64,000 nucleotides of DNA from an uncultured Thermoleophilia bacterium (GTDB taxonomy: Bacteria > Actinomycetota > Thermoleophilia > UBA2241): the NCBI GenBank assembly GCA_963767505.1, contig CAVYDV010000003.1:64890-128889 (forward strand), read 5' to 3'. The first letter of the stretch is position 1. Each line of letters starts with the position of its first letter. A program made the translations under genes and the position numbers. Shown here one piece after another: positions 747 to 56,263 of this stretch. Under the pieces are notes generated by a model, which searched no databases, was not told where the DNA came from, and saw only the letters and a list, made by a program, of their open reading frames with translations.

Positions 747-4414
<3,668 letters not shown>

Positions 4415-4514
4415 CCCTTCCGCCCCGCCAGTCCGCCCCTCAGACCTGAGAGCCGAGGGACAGCGTCTCCATGCCGGCAGGCGGTGCCGCATCCGTCGCT
4501 AGCGACGGAGTGGT

Positions 4515-4585: not shown

Positions 4586-5245
4586 TCATGGGATGACCTC
4601 GTAGCGCGCCCACACCACACCGTCATCGAGCCGCTGGACCTCGACCAGGCGGAGGTGCGCAATGTCGGCGTGCGAGACGGGATCGGGTCCACGCATGAAG
4701 GCACGCGACGTCTCCCCGCCCACCAGCACGGGCTCGAGCAGAACGCTCACCTCGGTCAGGAGCCCGGCGCGCAGGAGCGCTCCGCTGAGCGCGCCTCCGC
4801 TGTCGACGCGTACGCTCTGCACGCCGAAGCGCGCGTTGAGAAGCTCGAGGGCGGCTCGCAAGTCGACGCGGTCGCGGCCCGTCGCAAGCGTCACCACACC
4901 TTGGGCGGCGAGCCGCTCTCGCGCCTCGGCGGGGGTGGCCGCCGCGACGAGCGCGACGGCGTCACGCCAGTACTGCTGCTTGCGCAGCCAATTCCATGTC
5001 CTGAAGCGTCCGCGACTGTCGACGACGACGAGCAGCGGCCCCTCGCCGAGGTCCCCGGGGGCCGGCGGCCGCGCATCGTCTTCGGCAGGCAGACCCGGCC
5101 CCTCGATCAGCGTGTCTGCGCCGGTGAGGATGGCGTCCTCATCGAACCCGGCCGCAAGCGCGTAGAAGCGTCCGATATCAGGCTGGATCCAGTCGATGCG
5201 CCCGTCGAGGCTCGCCTCGACGTGCAGGATGACGCGCGGAAGCAC
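4586..5245 (-). CDS. dihydrofolate reductase family protein (RibD C-terminal domain-like)
   Basis: The 219-aa ORF MLPRVILHVEASLDGRIDWIQPD...VVVDSRGRFRTWNW...LVGGETSRAFM matches the bacterial DHFR/RibD_C fold pattern. It is divergent from ppc. Confidence 0.6.
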   Translation of the reverse strand: MLPRVILHVEASLDGRIDWIQPDIGRFYALAAGFDEDAILTGADTLIEGPGLPAEDDARPPAPGDLGEGPLLVVVDSRGRFRTWNWLRKQQYWRDAVALVAAATPAEARERLAAQGVVTLATGRDRVDLRAALELLNARFGVQSVRVDSGGALSGALLRAGLLTEVSVLLEPVLVGGETSRAFMRGPDPVSHADIAHLRLVEVQRLDDGVVWARYEVIP

Positions 5246-5426
5246 TGCGACTCCTCCCCAACGACGTCTATCGACACCTGCTTCAGTCTACCAGCGACGG
5301 CGCCTCTGCCGGCCGACCAAGGCGCCCCGCCCGACCCGAAGCCCACGATGTGACGGATGCGGGGTCGCTCAGGTACGATTGCATCCCGCGCGTATGCAGC
5401 TGCGCAGAAACCCAAGCGAGGCAACG

Positions 5427-6902
5427 ATGACGAGAGACACGCCGCTCACGATCCCGTGCTGCATGAGCACGCAGCATCCCGACAACGTCAACGTGCCCTT
5501 CTTCTCCTCCGGCCCCGAGCTCAGCGGCGAAGATGAGGTGCAGGAGGCCTACTACGCCTTCTCACACCTGGGGTGCGACGAGCAGATGTGGGACGTCGAG
5601 GGCAAGGAGGTCGACTCATTCGTCGTCAAGAAGCTGCTCACGCGCCACCAGCCGTACTTCAAGGAACACCGTCTGGGCCGCGACGTGTTCGTCACGCTGC
5701 GCGTCCCCAACCCGACGGTCGAGAAGGCGGAGGCGAAGATCCTGCTCGAGACCCTCGAGAGCATCCCGCGGTCGTACGACGCCTCGAAGCTCGTCTTCGG
5801 CGACGACATGCCGCCCATCTTCGAGGTGATCCTGCCCATGACCGCCTCGGCCAAATGCGTGAACCGCGTCTACCACTACTACCGGGACTTCATCGTCGCA
5901 AGACAGAATCGCCCCTTCTACCAGGGCGACGTCTCGATCGCCGAGTGGATCGGGGAGTTCAAGCCCGACACGATCAACGTGATCCCGCTCTTCGAGGACC
6001 TGCCCCAACTGAGCTCGGCGGACGAGATCACCGCGGACTACCTCAAGGGCAAGGATGCCACCGATCAGCGGGTCTTTCTGGCGCGCTCCGACCCGGCGAT
6101 GAACTACGGGATCGTCAGCGCCGTGCTGATGACCAAGATCGCTCTGGCACGCCTGGAGGACCTTCAGGAGCGCAGCGGCGTGAGCATCCACCCGATTCTC
6201 GGTGCCGGATCAGCCCCGTTTCGAGGGAACCTGTCCCCGGCCAACGCGGCGCGAGTGGCCGACGAGTACCCAAGTGTCAAGACCTTCACAGTACAGTCGG
6301 CGTTCAAGTACGATCACGCCCCGACAAAGGTGATGAACGCCATCCGCTATCTGCGCGACCGCGGGGTCCGGCCGGCGCAAGAGATGGACGAGGAGAGCTG
6401 CCACTCTGTGACGGCGAGGTACGCGGCGGAGTACCAGCGGCAGGTGCAGGCGCTCGCGCCCGTGATCAACTCGGTGGCTCGTTTCATACCCGCTCGACGC
6501 AAGCGCAAGCTCCACGTCGGCCTGTTCGGCTATTCGCGTGACCTCGGCGGCACGCAACTGCCGCGCGCCATATCGTTTACTGCGGCGCTCTACTCATTGG
6601 GCGTGCCGCCCGAGCTACTCGGCCTCTCCGCCCTCACCTCCGCAGACCTGAGCAACGTGCGCAGCATGTACCGTCACTTCGACGCGGACATCGAGGACGC
6701 CCTGCGGTTCGCCGACCTCGAGAGTCCGTTCATGCCTAGCGAAATCCGCTCCGCGATCGAGAAGCTGGGCCTCACCGCGAGCGTCGACGGAGAACACCGC
6801 GAGATCGTGCGCCAGATCAGCCAGCTCACGCTCGACGAGCAGAATGAGAACGTCGCCGACTTGGTGGTTCGCGCGGCCAGCCTGCGCCGCTTCCTGGGAT
6901 AG
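5427..6902 (+). CDS. ppcA: archaeal-type phosphoenolpyruvate carboxylase (PepcA family)
   Basis: Within ORF 5196..6902 the in-frame ATG at 5427 gives MTRDTPLTIPCCMSTQHPDNVNVPFF..., the hallmark N-terminus (IPRxMSTQHPDN) of archaeal-type PEPC at about 490 aa. Confidence 0.85.
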   Translation: MTRDTPLTIPCCMSTQHPDNVNVPFFSSGPELSGEDEVQEAYYAFSHLGCDEQMWDVEGKEVDSFVVKKLLTRHQPYFKEHRLGRDVFVTLRVPNPTVEKAEAKILLETLESIPRSYDASKLVFGDDMPPIFEVILPMTASAKCVNRVYHYYRDFIVARQNRPFYQGDVSIAEWIGEFKPDTINVIPLFEDLPQLSSADEITADYLKGKDATDQRVFLARSDPAMNYGIVSAVLMTKIALARLEDLQERSGVSIHPILGAGSAPFRGNLSPANAARVADEYPSVKTFTVQSAFKYDHAPTKVMNAIRYLRDRGVRPAQEMDEESCHSVTARYAAEYQRQVQALAPVINSVARFIPARRKRKLHVGLFGYSRDLGGTQLPRAISFTAALYSLGVPPELLGLSALTSADLSNVRSMYRHFDADIEDALRFADLESPFMPSEIRSAIEKLGLTASVDGEHREIVRQISQLTLDEQNENVADLVVRAASLRRFLG

Positions 6903-11133: not shown

Positions 11134-12597
11134 TCAGACGGGCGCCCGGTCCACCGCGCGTGTCTCCTGGGAGTTCCCCGTCGCCGGCGGCTCGACCCTC
11201 CGCGGCGGTCGCGGACGCAGGCTCGCCAGCATGCGCTCGTGAGCACGGTTGTCCGCATCCTTGCGCCACATGCGCGCATACCACCACAGCCAGCCGCGCT
11301 CGAGCATCCTGTCCCAGCTGCTCCTGTCGCGCTTGGTGAGCAACGCCCGCAGCGAATCCACGACTCGCCTCGTGCTGTAGAAGCGCCGATTGCCGCGCAA
11401 CGTCTCGCGCTGCAGATGGACTGGTGAAGTCTGCCGTGGCCTGAACACCACATGCTGAGCGTCGTAGAGCTCCCAGTCCTTGGTGATGAGCCTGTCCTCG
11501 GCATCGAGTTCGGCGAACTGCTGGGTGCCCGGCAGCGGGGTGAGGATGTTGAGCATCACCGTGTCGATGTGGTTCTTGAGGGCGAAGGTGACCGTGTCGC
11601 GCACGGTCTGTACGGTGTCTGTGTCGGCGCCGAGCACGAACATGCCGTGGCTACGGATCCCGTAGCCGTGCAGGATCTCGATGGAGCGCTCGATGTCCTC
11701 GACCGTCTGCGATTTCTCGAAGTGGTCCAGGGTGTCCTGGCTGACCGACTCGAGGCCGAGAGCGACGAAGTCACAGCCGGAGCGCCGCATGAGGGCGAGC
11801 AGCTCGGGGTCGCGCACGACGTCGGTGCGTACCTGAGCGCCCCACGGCATCGCGAGACCCTCATCGATCATCATCTGCAGCAGCCGCTTGAGGCGGCGCT
11901 TGTTGGCGGCGAAGTTGTCGTCGTAGAAGAAGATGCGCTTGGGGCGCTTCTCCTTGATCTCGGCGATCACGCTCTCGGCGCTGCGGAAGCGGTACTTGCG
12001 CCCGAACATCGCGGTCACCGAGCAGAAGTTGCAGGCGAACGGGCAACCCCAGCTGGTCATGATGGGGATGTTCGAGAGACGCTCGTAGCCCTTGATCAGA
12101 GAGAGGTCCGGGAACGGCAGCGTGTCGAGGTCGGCGCAGGGCTCGCGCAGCTGGTTGTGCACGGCGACGCCCTCGCGCAGGAAGGAGAGGCCGGCCACGT
12201 CCTCGAACTGGCGCCGGCCTTCGAGCGCCTCGATGAGCTCGAGCATGGTCTGCTCCCCGCCCTCGCCACGCGCCACGTAGTCGCCGTGTTCGAGCGCCTC
12301 GTCGGCCATGAAGGTGACGTGCGAGCCGCCGTGGATCACGGGGATGCCGCGCCAGCGCAGGTCGTCGGCGACGGCGTAGGCGGCCGGCGTGGTCGACGTG
12401 GTGCTAGAAAGCCCGACGAGGTCTGCGGAGTGCACATCGTCCCAGTCGATCGGCGCCAGATTGGGATGGTAGATGCGCACGTCGTGCCCCTGGGCCTTGA
12501 GCGTGGCACCGATGATGGGCAGACCGAGGCGGACGAAGTACGACTGCGACCAGAGATGCATGCTGGGCGCGTCGGGTTCGATGAGGCGTATCTTCAT
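11134..12597 (-). CDS. B12-binding domain-containing radical SAM protein (class B rSAM, function unknown)
   Basis: 487 aa. N-terminal cobalamin-binding Rossmann domain (MKIRLIEP...GHDVRIYHP...ADLVGLSS). rSAM cluster motif SWGCPFACNFCS (CX3CX2C). COG1032/HpnJ-like architecture. Confidence 0.85.
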   Translation of the reverse strand: MKIRLIEPDAPSMHLWSQSYFVRLGLPIIGATLKAQGHDVRIYHPNLAPIDWDDVHSADLVGLSSTTSTTPAAYAVADDLRWRGIPVIHGGSHVTFMADEALEHGDYVARGEGGEQTMLELIEALEGRRQFEDVAGLSFLREGVAVHNQLREPCADLDTLPFPDLSLIKGYERLSNIPIMTSWGCPFACNFCSVTAMFGRKYRFRSAESVIAEIKEKRPKRIFFYDDNFAANKRRLKRLLQMMIDEGLAMPWGAQVRTDVVRDPELLALMRRSGCDFVALGLESVSQDTLDHFEKSQTVEDIERSIEILHGYGIRSHGMFVLGADTDTVQTVRDTVTFALKNHIDTVMLNILTPLPGTQQFAELDAEDRLITKDWELYDAQHVVFRPRQTSPVHLQRETLRGNRRFYSTRRVVDSLRALLTKRDRSSWDRMLERGWLWWYARMWRKDADNRAHERMLASLRPRPPRRVEPPATGNSQETRAVDRAPV

Positions 12598-12623
12598 GAA
12601 GGTCCTTTGGATGTGACCGGGGC

Positions 12624-12659
12624 GGTCAAGGCATGACCGGCCACCGCACGGTGGCCTTG
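12624..12659 (-). other. 5'-leader hairpin(s) upstream of the rSAM gene (GGCCACC-GCAC-GGTGGCC; alternative GGTCAAGGC...GCCTTG pairing)
   Basis: A 7-bp perfect stem at 12639-12656 lies 42-59 nt upstream of the rSAM ATG. It overlaps a mutually exclusive CAAGGC/GCCTTG pairing that shares its motif with the downstream hairpin. Confidence 0.35.
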
Positions 12660-12797
12660 CAGTTCATACCCACAATACAGGATAAGCCAGACAATCGCCG
12701 TCCTCCATGCTGCGTCGGCCTCTGATAGCGTGTCGATGACCATAGTCAACGGCCGAGACGGCCATGCTGGTTCGAGACCGGCCAGCGGCCGGCCGCG

Positions 12798-50372: not shown

Positions 50373-51458
50373 TCAACGCGCCAGCTGGGCATCCGCCCGG
50401 CTCGAGTCACCAGCGACCCCCGCACTCTCGAAGGTCGCCATATCCGCAAGGACGCGGGCGGCTGCCTCGATGATCCCCATGGCCAGAGCCGCGCCGGTGC
50501 CCTCGCCGAGGCGCATCTGCAGATCGAAGAGCGGCGTCAGGCCGAGCTCGTCGAGCACCACCTGATGGCCGATCTCGATGCTCACATGGCTTGGCAGGAT
50601 GTAGTCGACGCACTCGCGACAGAGCCTCACCGCCACGAGCGCCGCAGCGGCGCTGATGAAACCATCCATCACGACCGGCACCCGGTGTACGGCGGCGCCC
50701 AGGAACACACCCGTCATGGCGGCGATCTCCAGGCCGCCGACCTTGGCCAGCACGCCCAAGGGGTCGGTGGCATCGGGGGAGTTCACGGCAAGCGCCCTCT
50801 CGATGACGGCGACCTTCGCCGGTAGCGCCTCGGCGCTGATACCCGTGCCCCGGCCGGTCACCAGCGCCACCGGCTGGCCGGTCAACGCCGCGATCACCGC
50901 CGAGGCCGCGGTCGTGTTGCCTATGCCCATCTCACCAGTCGCGACGATGTCCAGGCCGAGGACCAGCTCCTCCTCGACCAGCTCCAGCCCAACCTGGACC
51001 GCGGCGAGACACTCCTCATGTGTCATCGCCGGCCCCAGCGCCATGTTGGCTGTGCCCATGCGGACCTTCTTCTGGCGCACTCCGGAAGCATCGCTGAGAT
51101 CGGCATTCACGCCGACGTCAGTGACGATGACCCTGGCGCCGACGTGACGACCGATGACATTGATCGCCGCTCCGCCGGCAACGAAATTCAGGACCATGCC
51201 AGGCGTGACCTCAGCGGGAAACGCGCTCACTCCTTCGGCCGTGACGCCGTGGTCGGCCGCCATGACGGCGATGGCCTTCTGATCGATGACCGGCGCAGGT
51301 GCAACCTTGATGCCGGCCAACTGGATCGACAGCGCTTCCAGTCGGCCAAGAGCCTTGGGGGGCTTGGTGAGCTGCGCCTGCCGCGCTTCCGCTGACCGCA
51401 TGGCGTCGGCGTCCAGCGGCCGGATCTGGCGAATGGCGTGGTCCAACGAGTAGCTCAC
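50373..51458 (-). CDS. cobT: nicotinate-nucleotide--dimethylbenzimidazole phosphoribosyltransferase CobT
   Basis: The GTG start (SD AAGGAG) overlaps the cobU stop (GTGA). LTKPPKALGRLEALSIQLAGI...GEMGIGNTTAASA...VMDGFISAAAAL. Confidence 0.9.
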   Translation of the reverse strand: MSYSLDHAIRQIRPLDADAMRSAEARQAQLTKPPKALGRLEALSIQLAGIKVAPAPVIDQKAIAVMAADHGVTAEGVSAFPAEVTPGMVLNFVAGGAAINVIGRHVGARVIVTDVGVNADLSDASGVRQKKVRMGTANMALGPAMTHEECLAAVQVGLELVEEELVLGLDIVATGEMGIGNTTAASAVIAALTGQPVALVTGRGTGISAEALPAKVAVIERALAVNSPDATDPLGVLAKVGGLEIAAMTGVFLGAAVHRVPVVMDGFISAAAALVAVRLCRECVDYILPSHVSIEIGHQVVLDELGLTPLFDLQMRLGEGTGAALAMGIIEAAARVLADMATFESAGVAGDSSRADAQLAR

Positions 51459-52177
51459 GTCGACTCCTTGGAGAGAGGTGGCGGGGCGTGTGGGCCAGGG
51501 GGTGGGGTGGACGCCCAGGGCGATGCCAGGGCGCACAGGTCGAGCGGAATCCCCGAGACGAGAAAGAATACGCGGTCGGCGGCCGCCGCAAGGCGTTGGT
51601 TGGCCCATCCGAGCTGGTCACGATAGAGGCGCGCCAGCGGGTACTCGGGGACTACGCCGAGTCCCACCTCATTGGAGACGGCAAGGAGCGTCGCCCCGGT
51701 CTCGGCGAGTGCCGCCAGAAGGTCGTCGACGGCGTCCGCGACCCGACGCGCGACGGAGGCCTCCTGGGAGGCGGTCGGCAACGACTTGTCGTAGTTGAAC
51801 CCATCCCCAGGGTCGGTGCCGCCGAAATCGCCGACAGAGAAGATGAGGTTGCTGACCCAGAAGGTGACGCAGTCCAGGAGGAAGACGGACGAGCCGCCCG
51901 TCCCGGCGCGAGCCCGCACGACGGCCGGCACATCAAGGGGGCACTCCACGGTCGCCCAGGCGGCAGGTCGCGCGGCGCGATGCGCGGCGACACGCGACGC
52001 CATCTCGGCGTCGTTGGCCTCGGAGGTCGCAAGGTAGGTCACGCCGACGCGCGAGGCCGCTGCGCCGGACGCCGCCGACTGCTCCTCCGCCAGCGCGGCC
52101 GCGAGCCGCTCGGCGAAGGTACTCTTGCCGCTGCGCGCGCCGCCGGTGACCAGAATGAGTCGATCGTGAGGTCCCAC
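51455..52177 (-). CDS. cobU: bifunctional adenosylcobinamide kinase / adenosylcobinamide-phosphate guanylyltransferase CobU
   Basis: MGPHDRLILVTGGARSGKSTFAERLA (P-loop) ...LLDCVTFWVSN...AVSNEVGLGVVPE. Confidence 0.9.
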   Translation of the reverse strand: MGPHDRLILVTGGARSGKSTFAERLAAALAEEQSAASGAAASRVGVTYLATSEANDAEMASRVAAHRAARPAAWATVECPLDVPAVVRARAGTGGSSVFLLDCVTFWVSNLIFSVGDFGGTDPGDGFNYDKSLPTASQEASVARRVADAVDDLLAALAETGATLLAVSNEVGLGVVPEYPLARLYRDQLGWANQRLAAAADRVFFLVSGIPLDLCALASPWASTPPPGPHAPPPLSKEST

Positions 52178-52209
52178 CGCAGCCCTCCCTCGAGGCTCTC
52201 TCGCGATGA

Positions 52210-52380
52210 CCCCCCAGCCTCGGTGTCCTGGCTCGCGCTTCCTCCTACTGGCCGCGCCTTCCCGCCCCTTTGGGCAGTGGCCACATTGCGGCGGTCGTCC
52301 GCGCCTACAGTTGCGGGGCAGCGCCGGCTTCTCACCGGCTTCCCGAGAACTGAGGGATACGCATGAAGGCTACTCCCGCC
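52210..52380 (-). promoter_or_regulatory. cobalamin (adenosylcobalamin) riboswitch in the cobU leader
   Basis: The minus-strand RNA reads ...GGGAAGCCGGUGAGAAGCCGGCGCUGCCCCGCAACUGUAGG...AUGUGGCCACUGCCCAAAGGGGCGGGAAGGCGCGGCC...GAGCCAGGACACCGAGGCUGG. These are the conserved core, the B12-box (GCCACUG...GGGAAGGC) and the 3' CCAGGA element of RF00174. It is followed by a GC hairpin that can pair with the GAGGGAGGG SD of cobU. Confidence 0.8.
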
Positions 52381-52502
52381 GCGACTCGGACGTCAATCCG
52401 TGGGGGCGGAACGAGCGCCGTGCGGACCGCCCGCTCCCCGCCCACATCCAGGCCGCTCCCGCCCGAGGGCACGGCTCTCGCGCCGCCCGGTATACTCGCC
52501 CG

Positions 52503-53191
52503 ATGATCGCCGAGCACAGCCAGACCATGCGCAATCTGCACGCAGCGGAGCTGTTCGTCCAGCTCGACGACGACCAACTCGCGAAGATCGAGACGGTGGC
52601 GCAGCCCCTGACGCTGCCGGCCCAGAGCACCCTGTTTCTGCGCAGTGACCCTGCCGTGGCCTTCTACTTGCTTGCCGAGGGTCGCGTGAAGGTCTACAAG
52701 CTACTCAGCGACGGGCGCACGGCGACCATCCGTCACGTGGACTCCAGACAGACCTTCGCTGAGGCGGCGCTGTTCCACGACGAATACCCTCAAGCGCCGA
52801 GACCATGGCCCCCTGCCGCCTGTACCGGTTCGACACGCACGCCTTCCGTAGCCTGCTCCTGGCGGAGCCGCAGCTGGCCGTCAACCTTCTGGGGGCCATG
52901 GCGGAGCTGCTCGCGCTGCTCAATCGGCGCGTGGAGGAGCTGCTGCTGCCGGTGCCGGCGCGACTTGCCCGCTATCTGCTCGCACTCGCCGACGAGCACG
53001 GATCGCCTTCCGGGATGGTGAGGCTGCCGACCAGCAAGCGCGAACTGGCGGCTCGCCTGGGCACCGTCCCCGAGACACTGAGCCGAACGTTCGATCGCCT
53101 CAGCCGCGGCGGCGTTCTGCGCATGAGCGGCGACCACGAGTTCATCGAGATCGTGGACGACGAGAAACTGCAGCGACTGGCGCAGAACTAG
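52503..53191 (+). CDS. Crp/Fnr family transcriptional regulator (frameshift near 52800)
   Basis: The cNMP-binding-like N-domain (LFVQLDDDQLAKIETVAQPLTLPAQSTLFLRSDPAVAFYLLAEGRVKVYK) is in one frame and the HTH C-domain (TSKRELAARLGTVPETLSRTFDRLSRGGVL) in the next. A TATACT -10 box lies 7 nt upstream of the ATG, suggesting a leaderless transcript. Confidence 0.85.
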
Positions 53192-53295
53192 GAGGCCATG
53201 ACCCGCGCTCTCAGCTTGTGTGGCTCGAACGGGCGGTCCCGGTCGCCTTCGAGAAGCCCCGCGTCATGGAGACAGCTTCCCGCGCGAAGGAGCTC

Positions 53296-53309
53296 TTGAC
53301 CCACGTCAA
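53296..53309. promoter_or_regulatory. Crp/Fnr-type binding site TTGAC-CCAC-GTCAA upstream of the ferredoxin gene
   Basis: Perfect 5-4-5 inverted repeat matching the FNR/FixK/Dnr-type consensus TTGAY-N4-RTCAA. A TAGCAT -10-like hexamer lies about 30 nt downstream of the site centre, so the site sits near -41.5 (class II geometry). It is 72 nt upstream of the fdx ATG and just downstream of the crp/fnr gene. Confidence 0.55.
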
Positions 53310-53380
53310 TGGCGACAGACACGCGTGTGAGATAGCATAACCCTTGTCACCGTAGTGTTTAATCCGAAAGCGAGACCCTG

Positions 53381-53764
53381 ATGGCAGTACGCAGTATCGT
53401 CCACATCGACGAGGAGCTCTGCAACGGGTGCGGCCTGTGTGTCACTCCCTGCGCCGAGGGCGCTATCGAGATCATCGACGGCAAGGCGAAGGTGATGAAG
53501 GAAGAGCTATGCGACGGCGCCGGATTCTGCCTCGCCGTCTGCCCGGAGGGAGCGCTCACGGTCGAACAGCGCGACGCGCCCGAGTTCGATGAAGAGGCCG
53601 CGACCGAGAAGATGGCCGCCAAGCTGGCCGCCAGCGTTCGCATCAAGCAGACCTGCTTCCGCTGTGGAAGCGACGAGGACCAGGGCGTGCTCTTCCCGTG
53701 TCGCCTCAAGGGCGAGAGCCTGTGGGCCTGCGCTCGCTGTCTCCCGCCGCTGATCCACGGCTAG
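53381..53764 (+). CDS. 2x[4Fe-4S] ferredoxin-domain protein with a C-terminal CxxC...CxxC (zinc-ribbon-like) motif
   Basis: CNGCGLCVTPC and CDGAGFCLAVCP cluster motifs, then CFRCGSDEDQGVLFPCRLKGESLWACARC. 127 aa. Confidence 0.8.
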   Translation: MAVRSIVHIDEELCNGCGLCVTPCAEGAIEIIDGKAKVMKEELCDGAGFCLAVCPEGALTVEQRDAPEFDEEAATEKMAAKLAASVRIKQTCFRCGSDEDQGVLFPCRLKGESLWACARCLPPLIHG

Positions 53765-53808: not shown

Positions 53809-54255
53809 CTAGACGATGTCGAGCAGTTCGAAGCCCGTTGCCTCGTCGAGTCGCCGCACGGCCTGGTTGTCGAGCAGTTCGACAACAACGGCCTCGCCCA
53901 CGATCCAGGTCGTGACGCCTGCCCGGATGCAGCCAGCGGCCACCTGATCGTCGCGGCCGAAGGCAGCATGGAGGTGCAGCACCGGCTGCCCACTCCCGTC
54001 CGGGAACAGGGTACCGACGCCGGCCATCTCGTGAACGTCGTGCAGCGCCCGTTGCATCGGCACGATGGTGTCGGCGCGTCCGTTCTCCGGGCCGACAACG
54101 AGGCGGCTGCCGCCGTCGGCGCCCCCGAGCAGAATGACCGTGGCGCGCTGGATCCCCTCGTTGCGCGCCGCCTCCTCGATGCACTCATGCACCGTATCGC
54201 CGTCCTCCAACCGGATGACGAGCGTTCGGCCCAGACTGGCTGTCGAGTACTTCAT
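53809..54255 (-). CDS. PPC (DUF296) domain-containing protein
   Basis: MKYSTASLGRTLVIRLEDGDTVHECIEEAARNEGIQRATVILLGGADGGSRLVVGPENG...PVLHLHAAFG matches the PF03479 pattern. Confidence 0.7.
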   Translation of the reverse strand: MKYSTASLGRTLVIRLEDGDTVHECIEEAARNEGIQRATVILLGGADGGSRLVVGPENGRADTIVPMQRALHDVHEMAGVGTLFPDGSGQPVLHLHAAFGRDDQVAAGCIRAGVTTWIVGEAVVVELLDNQAVRRLDEATGFELLDIV

Positions 54256-54346
54256 GGGGGAACCTCCCTGCCGCCGCCTCATGAGCGATGACCGCAGCAT
54301 CATCACCGCCTGCACCGCCGTCCGTCAACCTTGCTAGACTCGGACA

Positions 54347-56263
54347 GTGACCTCTGCCTCGCACCTGCCCAGCTCACCGGGCGCCGATGATCGACCCTCC
54401 GCACGCGTCCTCCTGCGCGACGTCTTCGGCTTTGCGGAGTATCGCCCAGCTCAGGAGCAGATCGTGGAACACCTCATCGCGGGCTACGACGCTTTCGTAC
54501 TCATGCCGACCGGCGGCGGCAAGTCTCTCTGCTACCAGATCCCAGCACTCGTTCGCCCCGGCACCGCTATCGTCGTCTCGCCGTTGATCTCGCTCATGAA
54601 GGACCAGGTCGATGCACTTGCGGCGGCCGGCGTACGCGCCGCCGCCTTCAACTCGTCGCTCGAGGCGAACGAGGCGCGGAGCATACTCGCGCGACTGCAT
54701 CGCGGCGAGCTCGAGCTACTCTACGTCGCTCCGGAGACCCTCATGACCGAGCCCTTCTTGGCTCGGCTGAGACAGCTCACCGAGGTCGGTCGTGGTCCCG
54801 CCCTCTTCGCCATCGACGAGGCGCACTGCGTGAGCCAGTGGGGTCATGACTTCCGACCGGAGTACGTGCGCCTCGGCGAGCTGCGCAGCCTTTTCCCGGG
54901 TGCTCCGATCGTCGCCTGCACGGCGACCGCCGACCCGCAGACAAGAGAGGACGTGCGCGCCCGGCTCAAGCTCAGCGACGCCCCCAGCTTCGTCACCGGG
55001 TTCGATCGGCCGAACATCCGCTACACGGTCGTCGAGAAGCACGAGCCTCTGCAGCAGCTCAGGAGGTTCCTCGAGGGCCGACCGGACGAAGCTGGCATCG
55101 TCTACTGCCTGAGCCGCAAGCGCACGGAAGAAGTGGCCGAAAAACTCGCGGCTGCCGGGTTCTCCGCAGCCGCCTACCATGCGGGCCTCTCGGCGGAGAA
55201 GCGGCGGCGCGTGCAGGACGCCTTCGCTCGCGACGACCTCCTCGTCGTAGTCGCCACCGTGGCCTTCGGCATGGGCATCGACAAGAGCAACGTCCGCTTC
55301 GTCGTGCACTACGACTTGCCCAAGAGTGTCGAGAGCTACTACCAGGAGACGGGCAGAGCGGGCCGTGACGGCCTCCCGGCCGAGGCTCTTCTGCTCTTCG
55401 GCCTCGGTGATGCACCCTTCGTGCGGGCGCTGATCGAACGCAGCAATGCAGACACGGACCTCGAGCGCGACCCCCGGCAGGTCCGCGTCGAACTGCACAA
55501 ACTCGACACCATGGTGGGCTACGCCGATGGACTCACCTGCCGGCGCCTGACCCTCCTCGGCTACTTCGGGGAGCAGCGGGAGCACGACTGCGGAAACTGC
55601 GACATCTGCCTCGATCCGCCCGAGACCTACGACGCCACAGAGCAGGCGCGGATGGCTCTCTCGTGCGTCTATCGGGTGGGAGAGTCCTTCGGCATGGGCC
55701 ACGTCGTCGACGTCCTGCTCGGTGCGGACACCGAGAAGATCCGGGCTCGAGCCCACGACAAGCTGTCCACCTACGGGATCGGCGCCGGGACGAGCCGCGA
55801 GCACTGGCTGAGTGTCATCCGGCAGCTGATCCACCGCGGGTATCTCAGCCAGGACATCGCACGCTACTCGGTCCTGGGGCTCACGGCCAAGGCACGTCCA
55901 CTGCTGCGCGGCGAAGAGACACTCACGCTGGCGCGGCCGCGCACTCGCGTCCCTCTCGCCAAGAGGTCGCGCTCGAGGATGGGCGGCCGCGGCGACGCGC
56001 CCACCCTCGGCGACGAGGATGGACGGCTGTTCACGGAGCTGCGCGCCCTGCGCAAACGCCTTGCCGAGCAACAGGGCGTCCCGGCCTATGTCGTGTTCAG
56101 CGACGCAACGCTGGCCGAGATGGCCTCGCGAAGACCGTCCACTTCGGCAGAACTCCTCACCGTGGGCGGCGTCGGACGCGCCAAGCTTGAACGCTACGGA
56201 AGCATATTCCTCAGCGCCATCGCGGCCGAGCGCAACGAGTCACCTCGCGAGGCGTCAGCCTAG
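54347..56263 (+). CDS. recQ: ATP-dependent DNA helicase RecQ
   Basis: 638 aa with helicase motifs (LMPTGGGKSLCYQIPAL, DEAHCVSQWGHDFRPEY, HAGL...RRRVQDAF), an RQC Zn site CGNCDICLD, and an HRDC-like C-terminus. The frame is intact. Confidence 0.95.
   Translation: MTSASHLPSSPGADDRPSARVLLRDVFGFAEYRPAQEQIVEHLIAGYDAFVLMPTGGGKSLCYQIPALVRPGTAIVVSPLISLMKDQVDALAAAGVRAAAFNSSLEANEARSILARLHRGELELLYVAPETLMTEPFLARLRQLTEVGRGPALFAIDEAHCVSQWGHDFRPEYVRLGELRSLFPGAPIVACTATADPQTREDVRARLKLSDAPSFVTGFDRPNIRYTVVEKHEPLQQLRRFLEGRPDEAGIVYCLSRKRTEEVAEKLAAAGFSAAAYHAGLSAEKRRRVQDAFARDDLLVVVATVAFGMGIDKSNVRFVVHYDLPKSVESYYQETGRAGRDGLPAEALLLFGLGDAPFVRALIERSNADTDLERDPRQVRVELHKLDTMVGYADGLTCRRLTLLGYFGEQREHDCGNCDICLDPPETYDATEQARMALSCVYRVGESFGMGHVVDVLLGADTEKIRARAHDKLSTYGIGAGTSREHWLSVIRQLIHRGYLSQDIARYSVLGLTAKARPLLRGEETLTLARPRTRVPLAKRSRSRMGGRGDAPTLGDEDGRLFTELRALRKRLAEQQGVPAYVVFSDATLAEMASRRPSTSAELLTVGGVGRAKLERYGSIFLSAIAAERNESPREASA

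What the first reader, a model, noticed from the sequence alone, without database searches (positions are those of the whole stretch)
52487..53764. Crp/Fnr regulator, leaderless promoter, class-II TTGAC-N4-GTCAA site and a di-cluster ferredoxin with an extra Cys4 motif
A perfect FNR/FixK/Dnr-type palindrome (53296-53309) lies about 30 bp upstream of a TAGCAT -10 element (53333-53338) in front of a 127-aa 2x[4Fe-4S] ferredoxin that has an additional C-x2-C...C-x2-C tail. The regulator gene directly upstream has a TATACT box 7 nt before its ATG, suggesting a leaderless mRNA. The regulator lacks the N-terminal Cys cluster of O2-sensing Fnr, so its effector is unknown. The ferredoxin is a plausible redox partner for the PFOR encoded at the start of the window, and a PPC/DUF296 protein is divergently encoded next to it.
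Basis: partly seen in the sequence, partly recalled or inferred. Interest (0 to 1): 0.55.

Follow-up and report, generated by a model that had tools for sequence, protein, structure and literature searches.

The report
HcpR-type regulator and FrdX-like ferredoxin module
This is a Thermoleophilia copy of a known stress module, in which a Crp/Fnr-family activator switches on a small iron-sulfur protein through a conserved DNA palindrome; the regulator gene carries a one-base frameshift in this assembly, and in related genomes the same promoter also drives a CooS-V-type enzyme whose cellular role is unknown.

Summary
The DNA features are real. The perfect palindrome TTGACCCACGTCAA lies 23 nt before a TAGCAT -10 box, a TATACT box sits 6 nt before the regulator's ATG, and a 127-aa ferredoxin carries a Cys4 tail.

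Three details in the finding are wrong:
- The regulator gene is split by a 1-nt deletion at 52789/52790.
- The ferredoxin core has 7 Cys, not 8, because the second motif is an invariant C-x2-A-x2-C-x3-CP.
- The PPC gene is convergent with the ferredoxin gene, not divergent.

Comparative evidence is strong. The palindrome precedes the orthologous ferredoxin gene in 63 of 77 loci, always 22-24 nt before a TAnnnT box. 23 of 26 regulator orthologues have a -10 box (TATACT in 21) 6-8 nt before the start codon.

The motif, the PETLSR recognition helix and the ferredoxin's N-terminal domain all match the published HcpR-FrdX regulon. That domain is 60% identical to an FrdX encoded beside hcp. The likely signal is therefore NO or another reactive nitrogen species, not O2, and PFOR is not the supported partner.

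In 54 related loci the ferredoxin gene is followed by a CooS-V-type hybrid-cluster protein gene. The window has none.

The frameshift is probably an assembly error or very recent. This is a new variant of a known kind and of moderate interest.

The parts
52491..52496 (+). -10 box TATACT of the regulator gene, 6 nt before the ATG; promoter of a probable leaderless mRNA
   Evidence: Read directly. A -10 box (TATACT in 21, TATAAT and TAGACT in one each) lies 6-8 nt before the start codon in 23 of 26 orthologues. There is no room for a Shine-Dalgarno sequence.
52503..52789 (+). Crp/Fnr regulator, N-terminal part (cNMP-binding-like sensor domain), reading frame of ATG 52503
   Evidence: PF00027, E 3.5e-11. 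96% identical to the intact 229-aa protein of L001/P0121.
52789..52790 (+). Frameshift site: one base is missing relative to the intact orthologue (TACCC-TCAAGC here, TACCCGTCGAGC in L001)
   Evidence: Pairwise alignment A2. All 120 listed homologues are full length. Codon differences after the shift, read in the shifted frame, are 17 synonymous to 7 non-synonymous.
52790..53191 (+). Crp/Fnr regulator, C-terminal part (dimerisation helix and HTH_Crp_2 with recognition helix P-E-T-L-S-R), in the +1 frame relative to the N-terminal part; the end coordinate includes the stop codon
   Evidence: PF13545, E 2.1e-17. The best solved relative of the repaired protein is DNR 3dkw, E 1.2e-25. The helix TVPETLSRT is invariant in orthologues.
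53296..53309 (.). Operator TTGAC-N4-GTCAA, predicted binding site of the regulator dimer, centred about -42.5 from the predicted transcription start
   Evidence: Present upstream of the orthologous gene in 63 of 77 loci. It is almost the only perfect copy in each roughly 8-kb locus. The motif is the one published for HcpR.
53333..53338 (+). -10 box TAGCAT of the ferredoxin promoter, with no -35 hexamer
   Evidence: TAnnnT follows all 63 sites at 22-24 nt: 42 at 23 nt, 18 at 22 nt and 3 at 24 nt. T38, A39 and T43 are invariant in alignment A3. A generic sigma-70 scan finds nothing here.
53345..53380 (+). Predicted 5' UTR of about 36 nt, with a conserved CAC-N4-GTG element and the Shine-Dalgarno-like block GAAAGCGAG (53366-53374)
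   Evidence: Alignment A3. The alifold signal is weak, -3.1 kcal/mol. The start of the UTR is inferred from the -10 box and has not been mapped.
53381..53764 (+). 127-aa FrdX-like ferredoxin: an N-terminal domain with 7 core Cys (C14, C17, C20, C24; C44, A47, C50, C54-P) and a C-terminal Cys4 tail (C92, C95, C117, C120) ending LPxLIHG
   Evidence: 60% identical over 81 aa to a 267-aa FrdX that is encoded directly before hcp and behind a TTGACCTAGGTCAA site.

Best explanation
The locus is an HcpR-type regulatory module in a Thermoleophilia (Actinomycetota) genome.

A Crp/Fnr-family activator of the HcpR1/DNR type is made from a leaderless mRNA. As a dimer it binds TTGAC-N4-GTCAA centred about 42 bp upstream of the transcription start of a -10-only promoter. 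From that class-II position it activates a monocistronic gene for a short FrdX-like ferredoxin.

By analogy with HcpR and DNR, the signal is most likely nitric oxide or a related reactive nitrogen species, sensed through a cofactor in the N-terminal domain. The ferredoxin would supply low-potential electrons to a hybrid-cluster enzyme. In most relatives that enzyme is a CooS-V-type protein encoded immediately downstream. This window's lineage has lost that gene from the site.

Shown here: the sequence features, their conservation and spacing, the family relationships and the gene neighbourhoods.
Inferred: DNA binding by this protein, activation rather than repression, the NO signal, the electron-transfer role and the leaderless start.

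The 1-nt frameshift in the regulator is most likely an assembly indel or a very recent mutation.
For: Site and promoter architecture:
- 63 of 77 orthologous upstream regions carry the palindrome, including all 51 with a CooS-V gene. Every site is followed at 22-24 nt by TAnnnT.
- Perfect sites are almost absent elsewhere in roughly 620 kb of locus DNA.

Regulator:
- The closest solved relative is DNR.
- The recognition helix is P-E-T-L-S-R. Pro at the CRP-R180 position and Glu at 181 are what Rodionov et al. correlate with the motif wyTTGACnnnnGTCAArw of HcpR1.
- There is no conserved Cys.

Target gene:
- The ferredoxin's N-terminal 81 aa are 60% identical to a 267-aa Fer4+AF_0155 protein. That protein sits behind TTGACCTAGGTCAA, followed 22 nt later by TACACT, and directly before hcp (MFCYQCEQT...).
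- Other long forms sit behind Crp/Fnr genes with TTGACGTGGGTCAA or TTGATTTAAATCAA sites. Their regulators are 31-36% identical to this one and have the same helix.

Published biology:
- HcpR activates frdX-hcp in response to NO in C. difficile, and knock-down of frdX causes NO sensitivity.
- HcpR of P. gingivalis is a heme-based NO sensor.

Neighbouring enzyme in relatives:
- TIGR01702 scores 727 bits. The best PDB hit is CooS-V at 698 bits, against 388 bits for the next.
- All 54 copies have Glu at the CODH-II Cys295 position. That residue defines the hybrid-cluster CooS-V type, which has no CO oxidation activity.

Leaderless start.

Frameshift recent or artefactual:
- 17 synonymous to 7 non-synonymous codon differences after the shift.
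- nifJ is also split in this window.
- The same species assembled twice shows shattered genes in one assembly.
Against: - No experiment links this protein to this site or to NO.
- The His residues I recall as heme ligands of DNR (His139, His187) align with non-His residues here. This is my own reading of the alignment, and the ligand identities come from memory.
- No hcp, nor or nir gene is present in the window, so the nitrogen-oxide link rests on relatives and on the literature.
- CooS-V did not reduce NO detectably in vitro and reduces NH2OH only slowly. Its authors suggest a physiological role different from that of HCP.
- The ferredoxin lacks the AF_0155 C-terminal domain of FrdX and has a different tail, so it may have a different partner.
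- HcpR1 and DNR were not separated by a phylogeny with reference sequences.
- If the frameshift is real, the module is not working in this organism.
Confidence: 0.6

Rival explanations
1. This is an oxygen- or redox-responsive FNR/FixK-type anaerobic activator. It would switch on a general low-potential ferredoxin for anaerobic metabolism (PFOR or 2-oxoacid oxidoreductases) when oxygen is scarce.
For: - The box is of the FNR/FixK type and sits in class-II position.
- PFOR lies in the same window.
- 2-oxoacid:ferredoxin oxidoreductase genes lie next to the ferredoxin gene in 17 related loci.
- Weak NCBIfam similarity to FtrB, FnrL and FixK, all far below the cut-offs.
Against: - No Cys cluster and no conserved Cys at all.
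- FixK2 scores only 36 bits, against 94 for DNR.
- No site near nifJ.
- The strictly co-located gene in relatives is a CooS-V hybrid-cluster protein, not an oxidoreductase for 2-oxoacids.
- FrdX-type relatives sit with hcp.
Confidence: 0.15
2. The module is a decaying remnant in this organism. The regulator is a true pseudogene, the downstream cooS-V gene has been deleted, and the palindrome and ferredoxin gene are leftovers that are either unregulated or served by a paralogous regulator.
For: - A 1-nt deletion splits the regulator.
- cooS-V is absent from the window, although 54 of 80 relatives have it immediately downstream.
- nifJ is also frameshifted, which could indicate loss of anaerobic functions.
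Against: - Codon differences after the frameshift are mostly synonymous in the shifted frame, 17 to 7, like the intact flanks.
- The 97%-identical relative L001 also lacks cooS-V yet keeps an intact regulator, site and ferredoxin.
- The promoter and ferredoxin gene are fully conserved.
- Related long-read metagenome assemblies show obvious indel fragmentation of the same genes.
- Of about 27 ORFs in this window put through family searches, no split other than the regulator and nifJ was seen.
Confidence: 0.2
3. This is a CO-sensing CooA-like regulator that controls a carbon-monoxide dehydrogenase operon with its electron-acceptor ferredoxin.
For: - The gene after the ferredoxin gene in relatives passes the NCBIfam model for the anaerobic CODH catalytic subunit, at 727 bits.
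- CooA belongs to the same superfamily.
Against: - That gene is of the CooS-V type, with Glu in place of Cys295 in all 54 copies. The characterised member, CooS-V of C. hydrogenoformans, shows no CO oxidation or CO2 reduction.
- CooA scores only 26.9 bits.
- From my own knowledge, CooA sites are CRP-like 16-mers, not TTGAC-N4-GTCAA.
- The N-terminus is not conserved, so a Pro2-type ligand is unlikely.
Confidence: 0.03

Closest known systems
HcpR regulon, HcpR1 branch with the motif wyTTGACnnnnGTCAArw (Geobacter, Desulfuromonas, Desulfotalea, cyanobacteria; Rodionov et al. 2004 and 2005, PMC545781 and PMC1274295)
   Same: - A Crp/Fnr regulator without FNR cysteines.
- Pro at the CRP-R180 position, with Glu181 and Arg185 kept.
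- The same palindrome about 80-200 nt before the start codon.
- A ferredoxin-like gene as a core target, sometimes standing alone.
- A site overlapping the -35 region, which implies activation.
- A NapH/YccM-like polyferredoxin gene in the neighbourhood in 15 relatives.
   Different: - The phylum is Actinomycetota (Thermoleophilia).
- No hcp gene is present; relatives carry a CooS-V-type protein instead.
- The ferredoxin is a 127-aa short form with a Cys4 tail instead of the AF_0155 domain.
- The regulator is made from a leaderless transcript.
- Orthology with reference HcpR1 proteins was not tested by phylogeny.
FrdX, the ferredoxin-like protein of frdX-hcp operons (C. difficile CDR20291_2075, PMC12915319; here the 259-286-aa Fer4+PF27217 proteins of L084, L088 and L092)
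   Same: - The N-terminal roughly 80 aa are 55-65% identical, including CxxCxxCxxxC and the three-Cys motif C-D-G-x-G-x-C-x3-CP.
- The same kind of operator and regulator lies upstream.
   Different: - The C-terminal AF_0155-type domain is missing and is replaced by about 40 aa with two CxxC pairs and LPxLIHG.
- I could not compare it with the named FrdX proteins of Desulfovibrio or C. difficile, because no sequence was available.
DNR of Pseudomonas aeruginosa (PDB 3dkw), the heme-based NO sensor of denitrification
   Same: - It is the best solved relative (E 1.2e-25, full length).
- It has the same P-E-T-x-S-R helix.
- It binds an FNR-type box.
   Different: - No nir, nor or nos genes are nearby.
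- The proposed DNR heme-ligand histidines are not conserved (ligand identities from memory).
- Identity is only about 30%.
CooS-V of Carboxydothermus hydrogenoformans (PDB 7B7Q and others, PMC9311411). This applies to the gene next to the ferredoxin gene in relatives, not to anything in the window.
   Same: - 698 bits over the full length.
- Glu at the Cys295 position.
- The same N-terminal Cys pattern.
   Different: - The gene is absent from this window.
- The published enzyme has no assigned physiological role or partner, whereas here it has a conserved ferredoxin gene and an HcpR-type operator.

Membership tests
Crp/Fnr superfamily | N-terminal cNMP-binding-like beta-roll plus a C-terminal HTH_Crp_2 domain in one polypeptide | tested here: inconclusive
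   Both domains are present (PF00027, E 3.5e-11; PF13545, E 2.1e-17). They lie in two reading frames because of a 1-nt deletion. The repaired protein is 96% identical to an intact 229-aa homologue.
FNR (O2 sensor) | N-terminal Cys cluster plus a central Cys that bind a [4Fe-4S] cluster | tested here: not met
   The repaired protein has a single Cys, and it is not conserved among 24 orthologues.
HcpR (HcpR1 type) | Recognition helix with Ser or Pro at CRP position 180 and Glu at 181 | tested here: met
   The helix is G-T-V-P-E-T-L-S-R and is invariant in orthologues. The criterion comes from Rodionov 2005.
HcpR (HcpR1 type) | The palindrome TTGACnnnnGTCAA upstream of target genes, overlapping the -35 region | tested here: met
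   The site is at 53296-53309, 23 nt before the -10 box. It is conserved in 63 of 77 loci.
HcpR (HcpR1 type) | Targets are hcp and the ferredoxin-like frdX | tested here: inconclusive
   There is no hcp in the window. The target is an FrdX-like short form. Relatives carry a CooS-V-type hybrid-cluster protein in place of Hcp.
HcpR (HcpR1 type) | Responds to NO or nitrite; binds heme or another NO-sensing cofactor | not testable with these tools
   This rests only on analogy with the literature.
HcpR (HcpR1 type) | Clusters with reference HcpR1 proteins in a phylogeny | not tested
   No reference HcpR1 sequences were available. Regulators next to FrdX long forms are 31-36% identical to this one.
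DNR | Controls nir, nor and nos denitrification genes | tested here: not met
   No such genes were found in the window or in the roughly 8-kb neighbourhoods of 80 relatives. A genome-wide check was not possible.
CooA | Heme sensor with His77 and an N-terminal Pro ligand; CRP-like 16-bp site; controls a true Ni-CODH | tested here: not met
   CooA scores 26.9 bits. The N-terminus is not conserved. The neighbouring enzyme in relatives has Glu in place of Cys295.
CRP (cAMP receptor) | Arg82/Ser83-type cAMP contacts and the R-E-x-x-x-R helix that binds TGTGA-N6-TCACA | tested here: not met
   The helix has Pro at position 180, and the box is TTGAC-N4-GTCAA. Ser-Ser (Ser97-Ser98) align at the Arg82/Ser83 position, by my own reading of the alignment.
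Bacterial-type 2x[4Fe-4S] ferredoxin | Two complete CxxCxxCxxxCP motifs, giving 8 Cys | tested here: not met
   Motif 2 is C-D-G-A-G-F-C-x3-C-P. The Ala is invariant across six phyla, and Leu or Phe occupies that position in FrdX long forms. One site therefore has three Cys ligands.
FrdX | Ferredoxin-like protein encoded with hcp under an HcpR site | tested here: inconclusive
   The N-terminal domain is homologous, at 60% identity over 81 aa, to a protein in exactly that context. The C-terminal AF_0155 domain is absent. The named FrdX sequences were not compared.
CooF | A protein of about 190 aa with four [4Fe-4S] motifs | tested here: not met
   This protein is 127 aa and has one complete and one three-Cys motif.
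Zinc-ribbon or rubredoxin-like Cys4 site (C-terminal tail) | Two CxxC knuckles on beta-hairpins that bind one metal ion | tested here: inconclusive
   C92-x2-C95 and C117-x2-C120 are invariant. The AlphaFold model shows hairpins at 104-117 but has a mean pLDDT of 59.7. There is no Pfam hit.
Class-II activator-dependent promoter | Activator site centred near -41.5 that replaces the -35 element | tested here: inconclusive
   The spacing to the -10 box is fixed at 22-24 nt in 63 of 63 sites. That gives a centre at -41.5 to -43.5 (-42.5 in this window) if transcription starts 7 nt after the -10 box. The start has not been mapped.
Leaderless mRNA | Transcription starts at or next to the start codon | tested here: inconclusive
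   A -10 box lies 6-8 nt before the ATG or GTG in 23 of 26 orthologues. No transcription-start data exist.
Cobalamin riboswitch (RF00174), a neighbouring element | Score above the Rfam gathering threshold, located upstream of B12-related genes | tested here: met
   88.7 bits against a threshold of 31.5, full model length, upstream of cobU-cobT on the minus strand.

The most novel reading that the evidence does not exclude
In Thermoleophilia, a CooS-V-type hybrid-cluster enzyme has taken the place of Hcp as the enzymatic arm of an HcpR-FrdX stress regulon. The short 127-aa ferredoxin would be its dedicated electron donor; it has a three-Cys cluster site and a Cys4 tail, and it is about 65-70% identical across six phyla. 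This would give the first physiological context for CooS-V enzymes: defence against NO, nitrite or hydroxylamine, or another reaction at very low potential. It would also define a new, widespread ferredoxin family controlled by Crp/Fnr regulators of at least two DNA specificities, TTGAC-N4-GTCAA and TGTGA-N6-TCACA.
Probability: 0.35. Interest if true: 0.6.

Novelty: new variant of a known kind. Interest (0 to 1): 0.4.

Why it matters
For this window alone the result is mainly a correct annotation:
- The regulator is of the HcpR/DNR type, not an O2 sensor.
- Its gene is frameshifted in this assembly.
- The ferredoxin is FrdX-like with a three-Cys cluster site.
- PFOR is not its indicated partner.

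The wider value lies in the comparison. The same operator and promoter drives fdx plus a CooS-V-type gene in all 51 related loci that have CooS-V and enough upstream sequence.

CooS-V enzymes are annotated as CO dehydrogenases. The characterised member does not oxidise CO and has no known role. A conserved link to an NO-stress-type regulon gives a hypothesis that can be tested directly.

It also warns against counting these genes as CO-oxidation potential in soil and sediment metagenomes.

Tried and rejected
- **Second regulon member in the window.** The only near-match (ATGACCATAGTCAA, 12736-12749, one mismatch) is intergenic upstream of a B12-radical-SAM gene. It has no TAnnnT at the right spacing and is within chance expectation. 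I did not accept it.
- **Site at the nifJ promoter.** None with up to 2 mismatches.
- **Generic sigma-70 promoter and terminator scan.** Nothing at either promoter. This is expected for -10-only promoters.
- **Structure of the ferredoxin.** The AlphaFold model has mean pLDDT 59.7, too poor for a fold search, so I ran none.
- **RNA structure in the 5' UTR.** Only a 3-5-bp CAC/GTG hairpin with weak alifold energy. I did not claim it.
- **CO-sensing idea.** I considered it when the neighbour in relatives scored as CODH. I dropped it once the neighbour proved to be of the CooS-V type.
- **Conserved context in distant homologues.** Neighbours in Firmicutes and other phyla are unrelated genes.
- **Literature on Ni-CODH contexts.** PMC6344411 and PMC13240472 do not mention this ferredoxin or regulator.
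- **Direct comparison with named FrdX proteins** (DVU2544, CDR20291_2075). Not possible, because no sequences were available.
Full report
**1. What is in the sequence**

- The window is 67% G+C.
- On the plus strand, TATACT (52491-52496) lies 6 nt before an ATG at 52503.
- That ATG opens a frame encoding a cNMP-binding-like domain (PF00027, E 3.5e-11).
- The matching HTH_Crp_2 domain (PF13545, E 2.1e-17) is in a different frame, ORF 52805-53191.
- The perfect palindrome TTGACCCACGTCAA is at 53296-53309. It is the only perfect copy in the 64 kb.
- TAGCAT follows 23 nt later (53333-53338), and the ATG of a 127-aa ferredoxin follows at 53381.
- The PPC/DUF296 gene (53809-54258) is on the minus strand, tail-to-tail with the ferredoxin gene. 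It is therefore convergent with that gene and divergent from recQ at 54347.
- A cobalamin riboswitch (52199-52369, minus strand, 88.7 bits) heads the cobU-cobT operon. It shares the intergenic region with the regulator's promoter.

**2. The frameshift**

- A genome scan returned 80 loci encoding relatives of the ferredoxin, mostly from Thermoleophilia MAGs.
- L001 is 97% identical in DNA and has the same gene order: cobT-cobU-regulator-ferredoxin-PPC-recQ.
- Its regulator is one 229-aa ORF. The window lacks a single G between 52789 and 52790 (TACCC-TCAAGC here, TACCCGTCGAGC in L001).
- All 120 listed homologues of the repaired protein are full length.
- After the shift, codon differences between the window and L001, read in the shifted frame, are 17 synonymous to 7 non-synonymous. 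The N-terminal part gives 8 to 3 and the ferredoxin gene 13 to 3. The C-terminal half has therefore stayed under selection.
- nifJ at the start of the window is also split. ORF 1631-4498 covers profile positions 3-896 of TIGR02176, and ORF 810-1847 covers 900-1148.
- Two assemblies of one related species differ in exactly this way: genes are intact in one and shattered in the other.
- I conclude that the frameshift is an assembly indel or a very recent mutation. Only reads can decide between these.

**3. The operator and the two promoters are conserved**

- Of 77 loci with at least 150 nt upstream of the ferredoxin gene, 63 carry TTGA[CT]-N4-[GA]TCAA within 250 nt. 58 of these are perfect, and the four central bases vary.
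- Every one of the 63 sites is followed by TAnnnT at 22-24 nt: 42 at 23 nt, 18 at 22 nt and 3 at 24 nt (alignment).
- In roughly 620 kb of locus DNA, perfect copies occur almost only at this position.
- If transcription starts 7 nt after the -10 box, the site centre is at -41.5 to -43.5 (-42.5 in this window). This is a class-II arrangement with no -35 hexamer, which agrees with the empty generic promoter scan.
- For the regulator gene, 23 of 26 orthologues have a -10 box 6-8 nt before the ATG or GTG: TATACT in 21, TATAAT in one and TAGACT in one. This conservation supports a leaderless transcript.
- Two of the three exceptions (L040, L045) appear to be translationally coupled to an upstream polyferredoxin gene. 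No upstream start codon could be assigned in the third (L060).

**4. What the regulator is**

- The repaired protein's best solved relative is DNR of P. aeruginosa (E 1.2e-25). M. tuberculosis Crp, FixK2 and CooA score far lower.
- Orthologues have no conserved cysteine. They share an invariant R-H-V (His78) and the recognition helix G-T-V-P-E-T-L-S-R.
- Rodionov et al. (PMC545781, PMC1274295) described HcpR, a branch of Crp/Fnr regulators next to DNR.
  - Replacement of CRP Arg180 by Ser or Pro goes with the motif wyTTGACnnnnGTCAArw.
  - That motif is found before hcp, before the ferredoxin-like frdX (including stand-alone copies) and before a polyferredoxin gene. Its position implies activation.
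- The helix here has Pro-Glu at positions 180-181, and the box is that motif.
- HcpR activates frdX-hcp in response to NO in C. difficile, and knock-down of frdX gives NO sensitivity (PMC12915319).
- P. gingivalis HcpR senses NO through heme (PMC12750200).
- I could not place the protein in a tree with reference HcpR1 sequences.
- The histidines I recall as DNR heme ligands are not conserved here. The sensing chemistry therefore remains an inference.

**5. What the ferredoxin is**

- Motif 1 is complete: C14-x2-C17-x2-C20-x3-C24.
- Motif 2 is C44-D-G-A47-G-F-C50-x3-C54-P. The Ala is invariant in Thermoleophilia and in Firmicutes, Chloroflexota, Planctomycetota, Spirochaetota and Coriobacteriia.
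- One cluster site therefore has only three Cys ligands. It may hold a [3Fe-4S] cluster, or a [4Fe-4S] cluster with a free or non-Cys-ligated iron.
- The tail C92-x2-C95...C117-x2-C120-LPxLIHG is also invariant. The structural model is too weak to define its fold (pLDDT 59.7).
- An exhaustive search of 1.84 billion representative proteins gave these counts:

| E-value cut-off | Representatives |
|---|---|
| up to 1e-30 | 17 |
| up to 1e-10 | 1645 |

- Many of the listed hits, including the ten I read in full, share only the N-terminal roughly 80 residues at 55-65% identity. Many are 200-290 aa long.
- These long forms carry a PF27217 (AF_0155) C-terminal domain. They sit in textbook HcpR contexts:
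  - L088 and L090: Crp/Fnr gene, then TTGACGTGGGTCAA, then 22 nt, then TATTCT, then the long form.
  - L084: Crp/Fnr gene, then TTGATTTAAATCAA, then the long form.
  - L092: TTGACCTAGGTCAA, then 22 nt, then TACACT, then the long form, then Hcp (MFCYQCEQT...).
- The window's ferredoxin is 60% identical over 81 aa to the L092 protein, including the three-Cys motif.
- The regulators next to the long forms are 31-36% identical to this one and have the same helix.
- The ferredoxin is thus a short FrdX-type protein with a different C-terminal module.

**6. What relatives add**

- In 54 of 80 loci the ferredoxin gene is followed, 50-120 bp downstream, by a 621-aa protein.
- That protein passes the NCBIfam model for the anaerobic CODH catalytic subunit at 727 bits.
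- Its best solved relative by a wide margin is CooS-V of C. hydrogenoformans, at 698 bits against 388 for the next hit.
- All 54 copies have GSIETGQE, which puts Glu at the CODH-II Cys295 position. None has the CC motif of true CODHs.
- Jeoung et al. (PMC9311411) showed the following for CooS-V:
  - This substitution gives an Fe/S/O hybrid cluster like that of Hcp.
  - There is no CO oxidation and only slow NH2OH reduction.
- All 51 CooS-V-positive loci with enough upstream sequence carry the operator.
- No paper in the searched library mentions both CooS-V and HcpR.
- The window has no cooS-V, hcp or long FrdX gene.
- Gene order in relatives is fdx-cooS-V ... PPC-recQ. This indicates that the window's lineage, together with L001 and L059, lost cooS-V from the site.
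- Twelve loci without CooS-V still keep the operator and the ferredoxin gene. Among them are Phycisphaerae and Anaerolineales MAGs whose regulators are 37-44% identical to this one. The ferredoxin is therefore the core target.

**7. Verdict**

- The module is best filed as a Thermoleophilia variant of the HcpR-FrdX regulon, not as an O2-sensing system that feeds PFOR.
- Its signal (NO or another reactive nitrogen species) and the ferredoxin's partner are inferred, not shown.
- The window's copy is incomplete. The regulator is frameshifted, probably through an assembly artefact, and there is no hybrid-cluster enzyme next door.
- Interest is moderate. It comes mainly from the conserved link between an HcpR-type operator, this unusual ferredoxin and CooS-V-type enzymes in related genomes.

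Noticed in passing
window 810-4498 (minus strand): nifJ (pyruvate:ferredoxin oxidoreductase) is split into two overlapping ORFs. ORF 1631-4498 covers TIGR02176 positions 3-896 and ORF 810-1847 covers 900-1148. This is a second frameshift in the window, near 1634-1640.
   Followed up: partly
window 52199-52369 (minus strand): A cobalamin riboswitch (RF00174, 88.7 bits) lies upstream of the cobU (51455-52177), cobT (50373-51608) and cobS operon. Its promoter must lie in the 133 nt it shares with the regulator's leaderless promoter.
   Followed up: partly
window 12736-12749: ATGACCATAGTCAA is a one-mismatch copy of the operator. It lies in the intergenic region upstream of a B12-binding radical-SAM gene (11134-12663, minus strand). 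No TAnnnT follows at 22-24 nt on either strand, and the match is within chance expectation.
   Followed up: partly
L068, L078, L079 (Desulfofundulus and Desulfovirgula), 104-110 nt upstream of the ferredoxin gene at 4001: The same ferredoxin family is preceded there by a CRP-type palindrome, TGTGA-N6-TCACA (for example TGTGATGATTATCACA). This is the other published HcpR motif type. No Crp/Fnr gene was found within 4 kb.
   Followed up: partly
window 53345-53380 and alignment A3: The predicted 5' UTR of the ferredoxin mRNA has conserved blocks: CAC-N4..8-GTG, an A-rich run, and CGAAAGCGAG 7-16 nt before the ATG. In many relatives a 5' CACTG could also pair with CAGTG just before the ATG. Fold support is weak.
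   Followed up: partly
L081 versus L082/L083: The same species was assembled from different samples. In L081 the Crp/Fnr gene and the 2-oxoacid oxidoreductase alpha gene are broken into small ORFs, while L082 and L083 have them intact. This points to frequent indel errors in these metagenome assemblies.
   Followed up: no
L023, L030, L040, L045, L051, L056, L059, L082 and others (15 loci): A NapH/NapG-like polyferredoxin gene of about 540 aa lies directly upstream of the regulator gene, apparently co-transcribed in L040 and L045. This recalls the yccM polyferredoxin target of HcpR in Desulfuromonas.
   Followed up: partly
L041 (ferredoxin copies at 1854-2231 and 4001-4381): There are two tandem copies of the ferredoxin gene in one locus. 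The operator precedes the first copy (site at 1768), and the CooS-V gene follows the second.
   Followed up: no
window 54299-54328 (minus strand): The only sigma-70-like match in the region (TTGACG-18-GATGAT) lies upstream of the PPC gene, in the 88-nt divergent region shared with recQ.
   Followed up: no
window 5166-6902: An archaeal-type phosphoenolpyruvate carboxylase (PF14010, 628 bits) is encoded divergently from nifJ.
   Followed up: no
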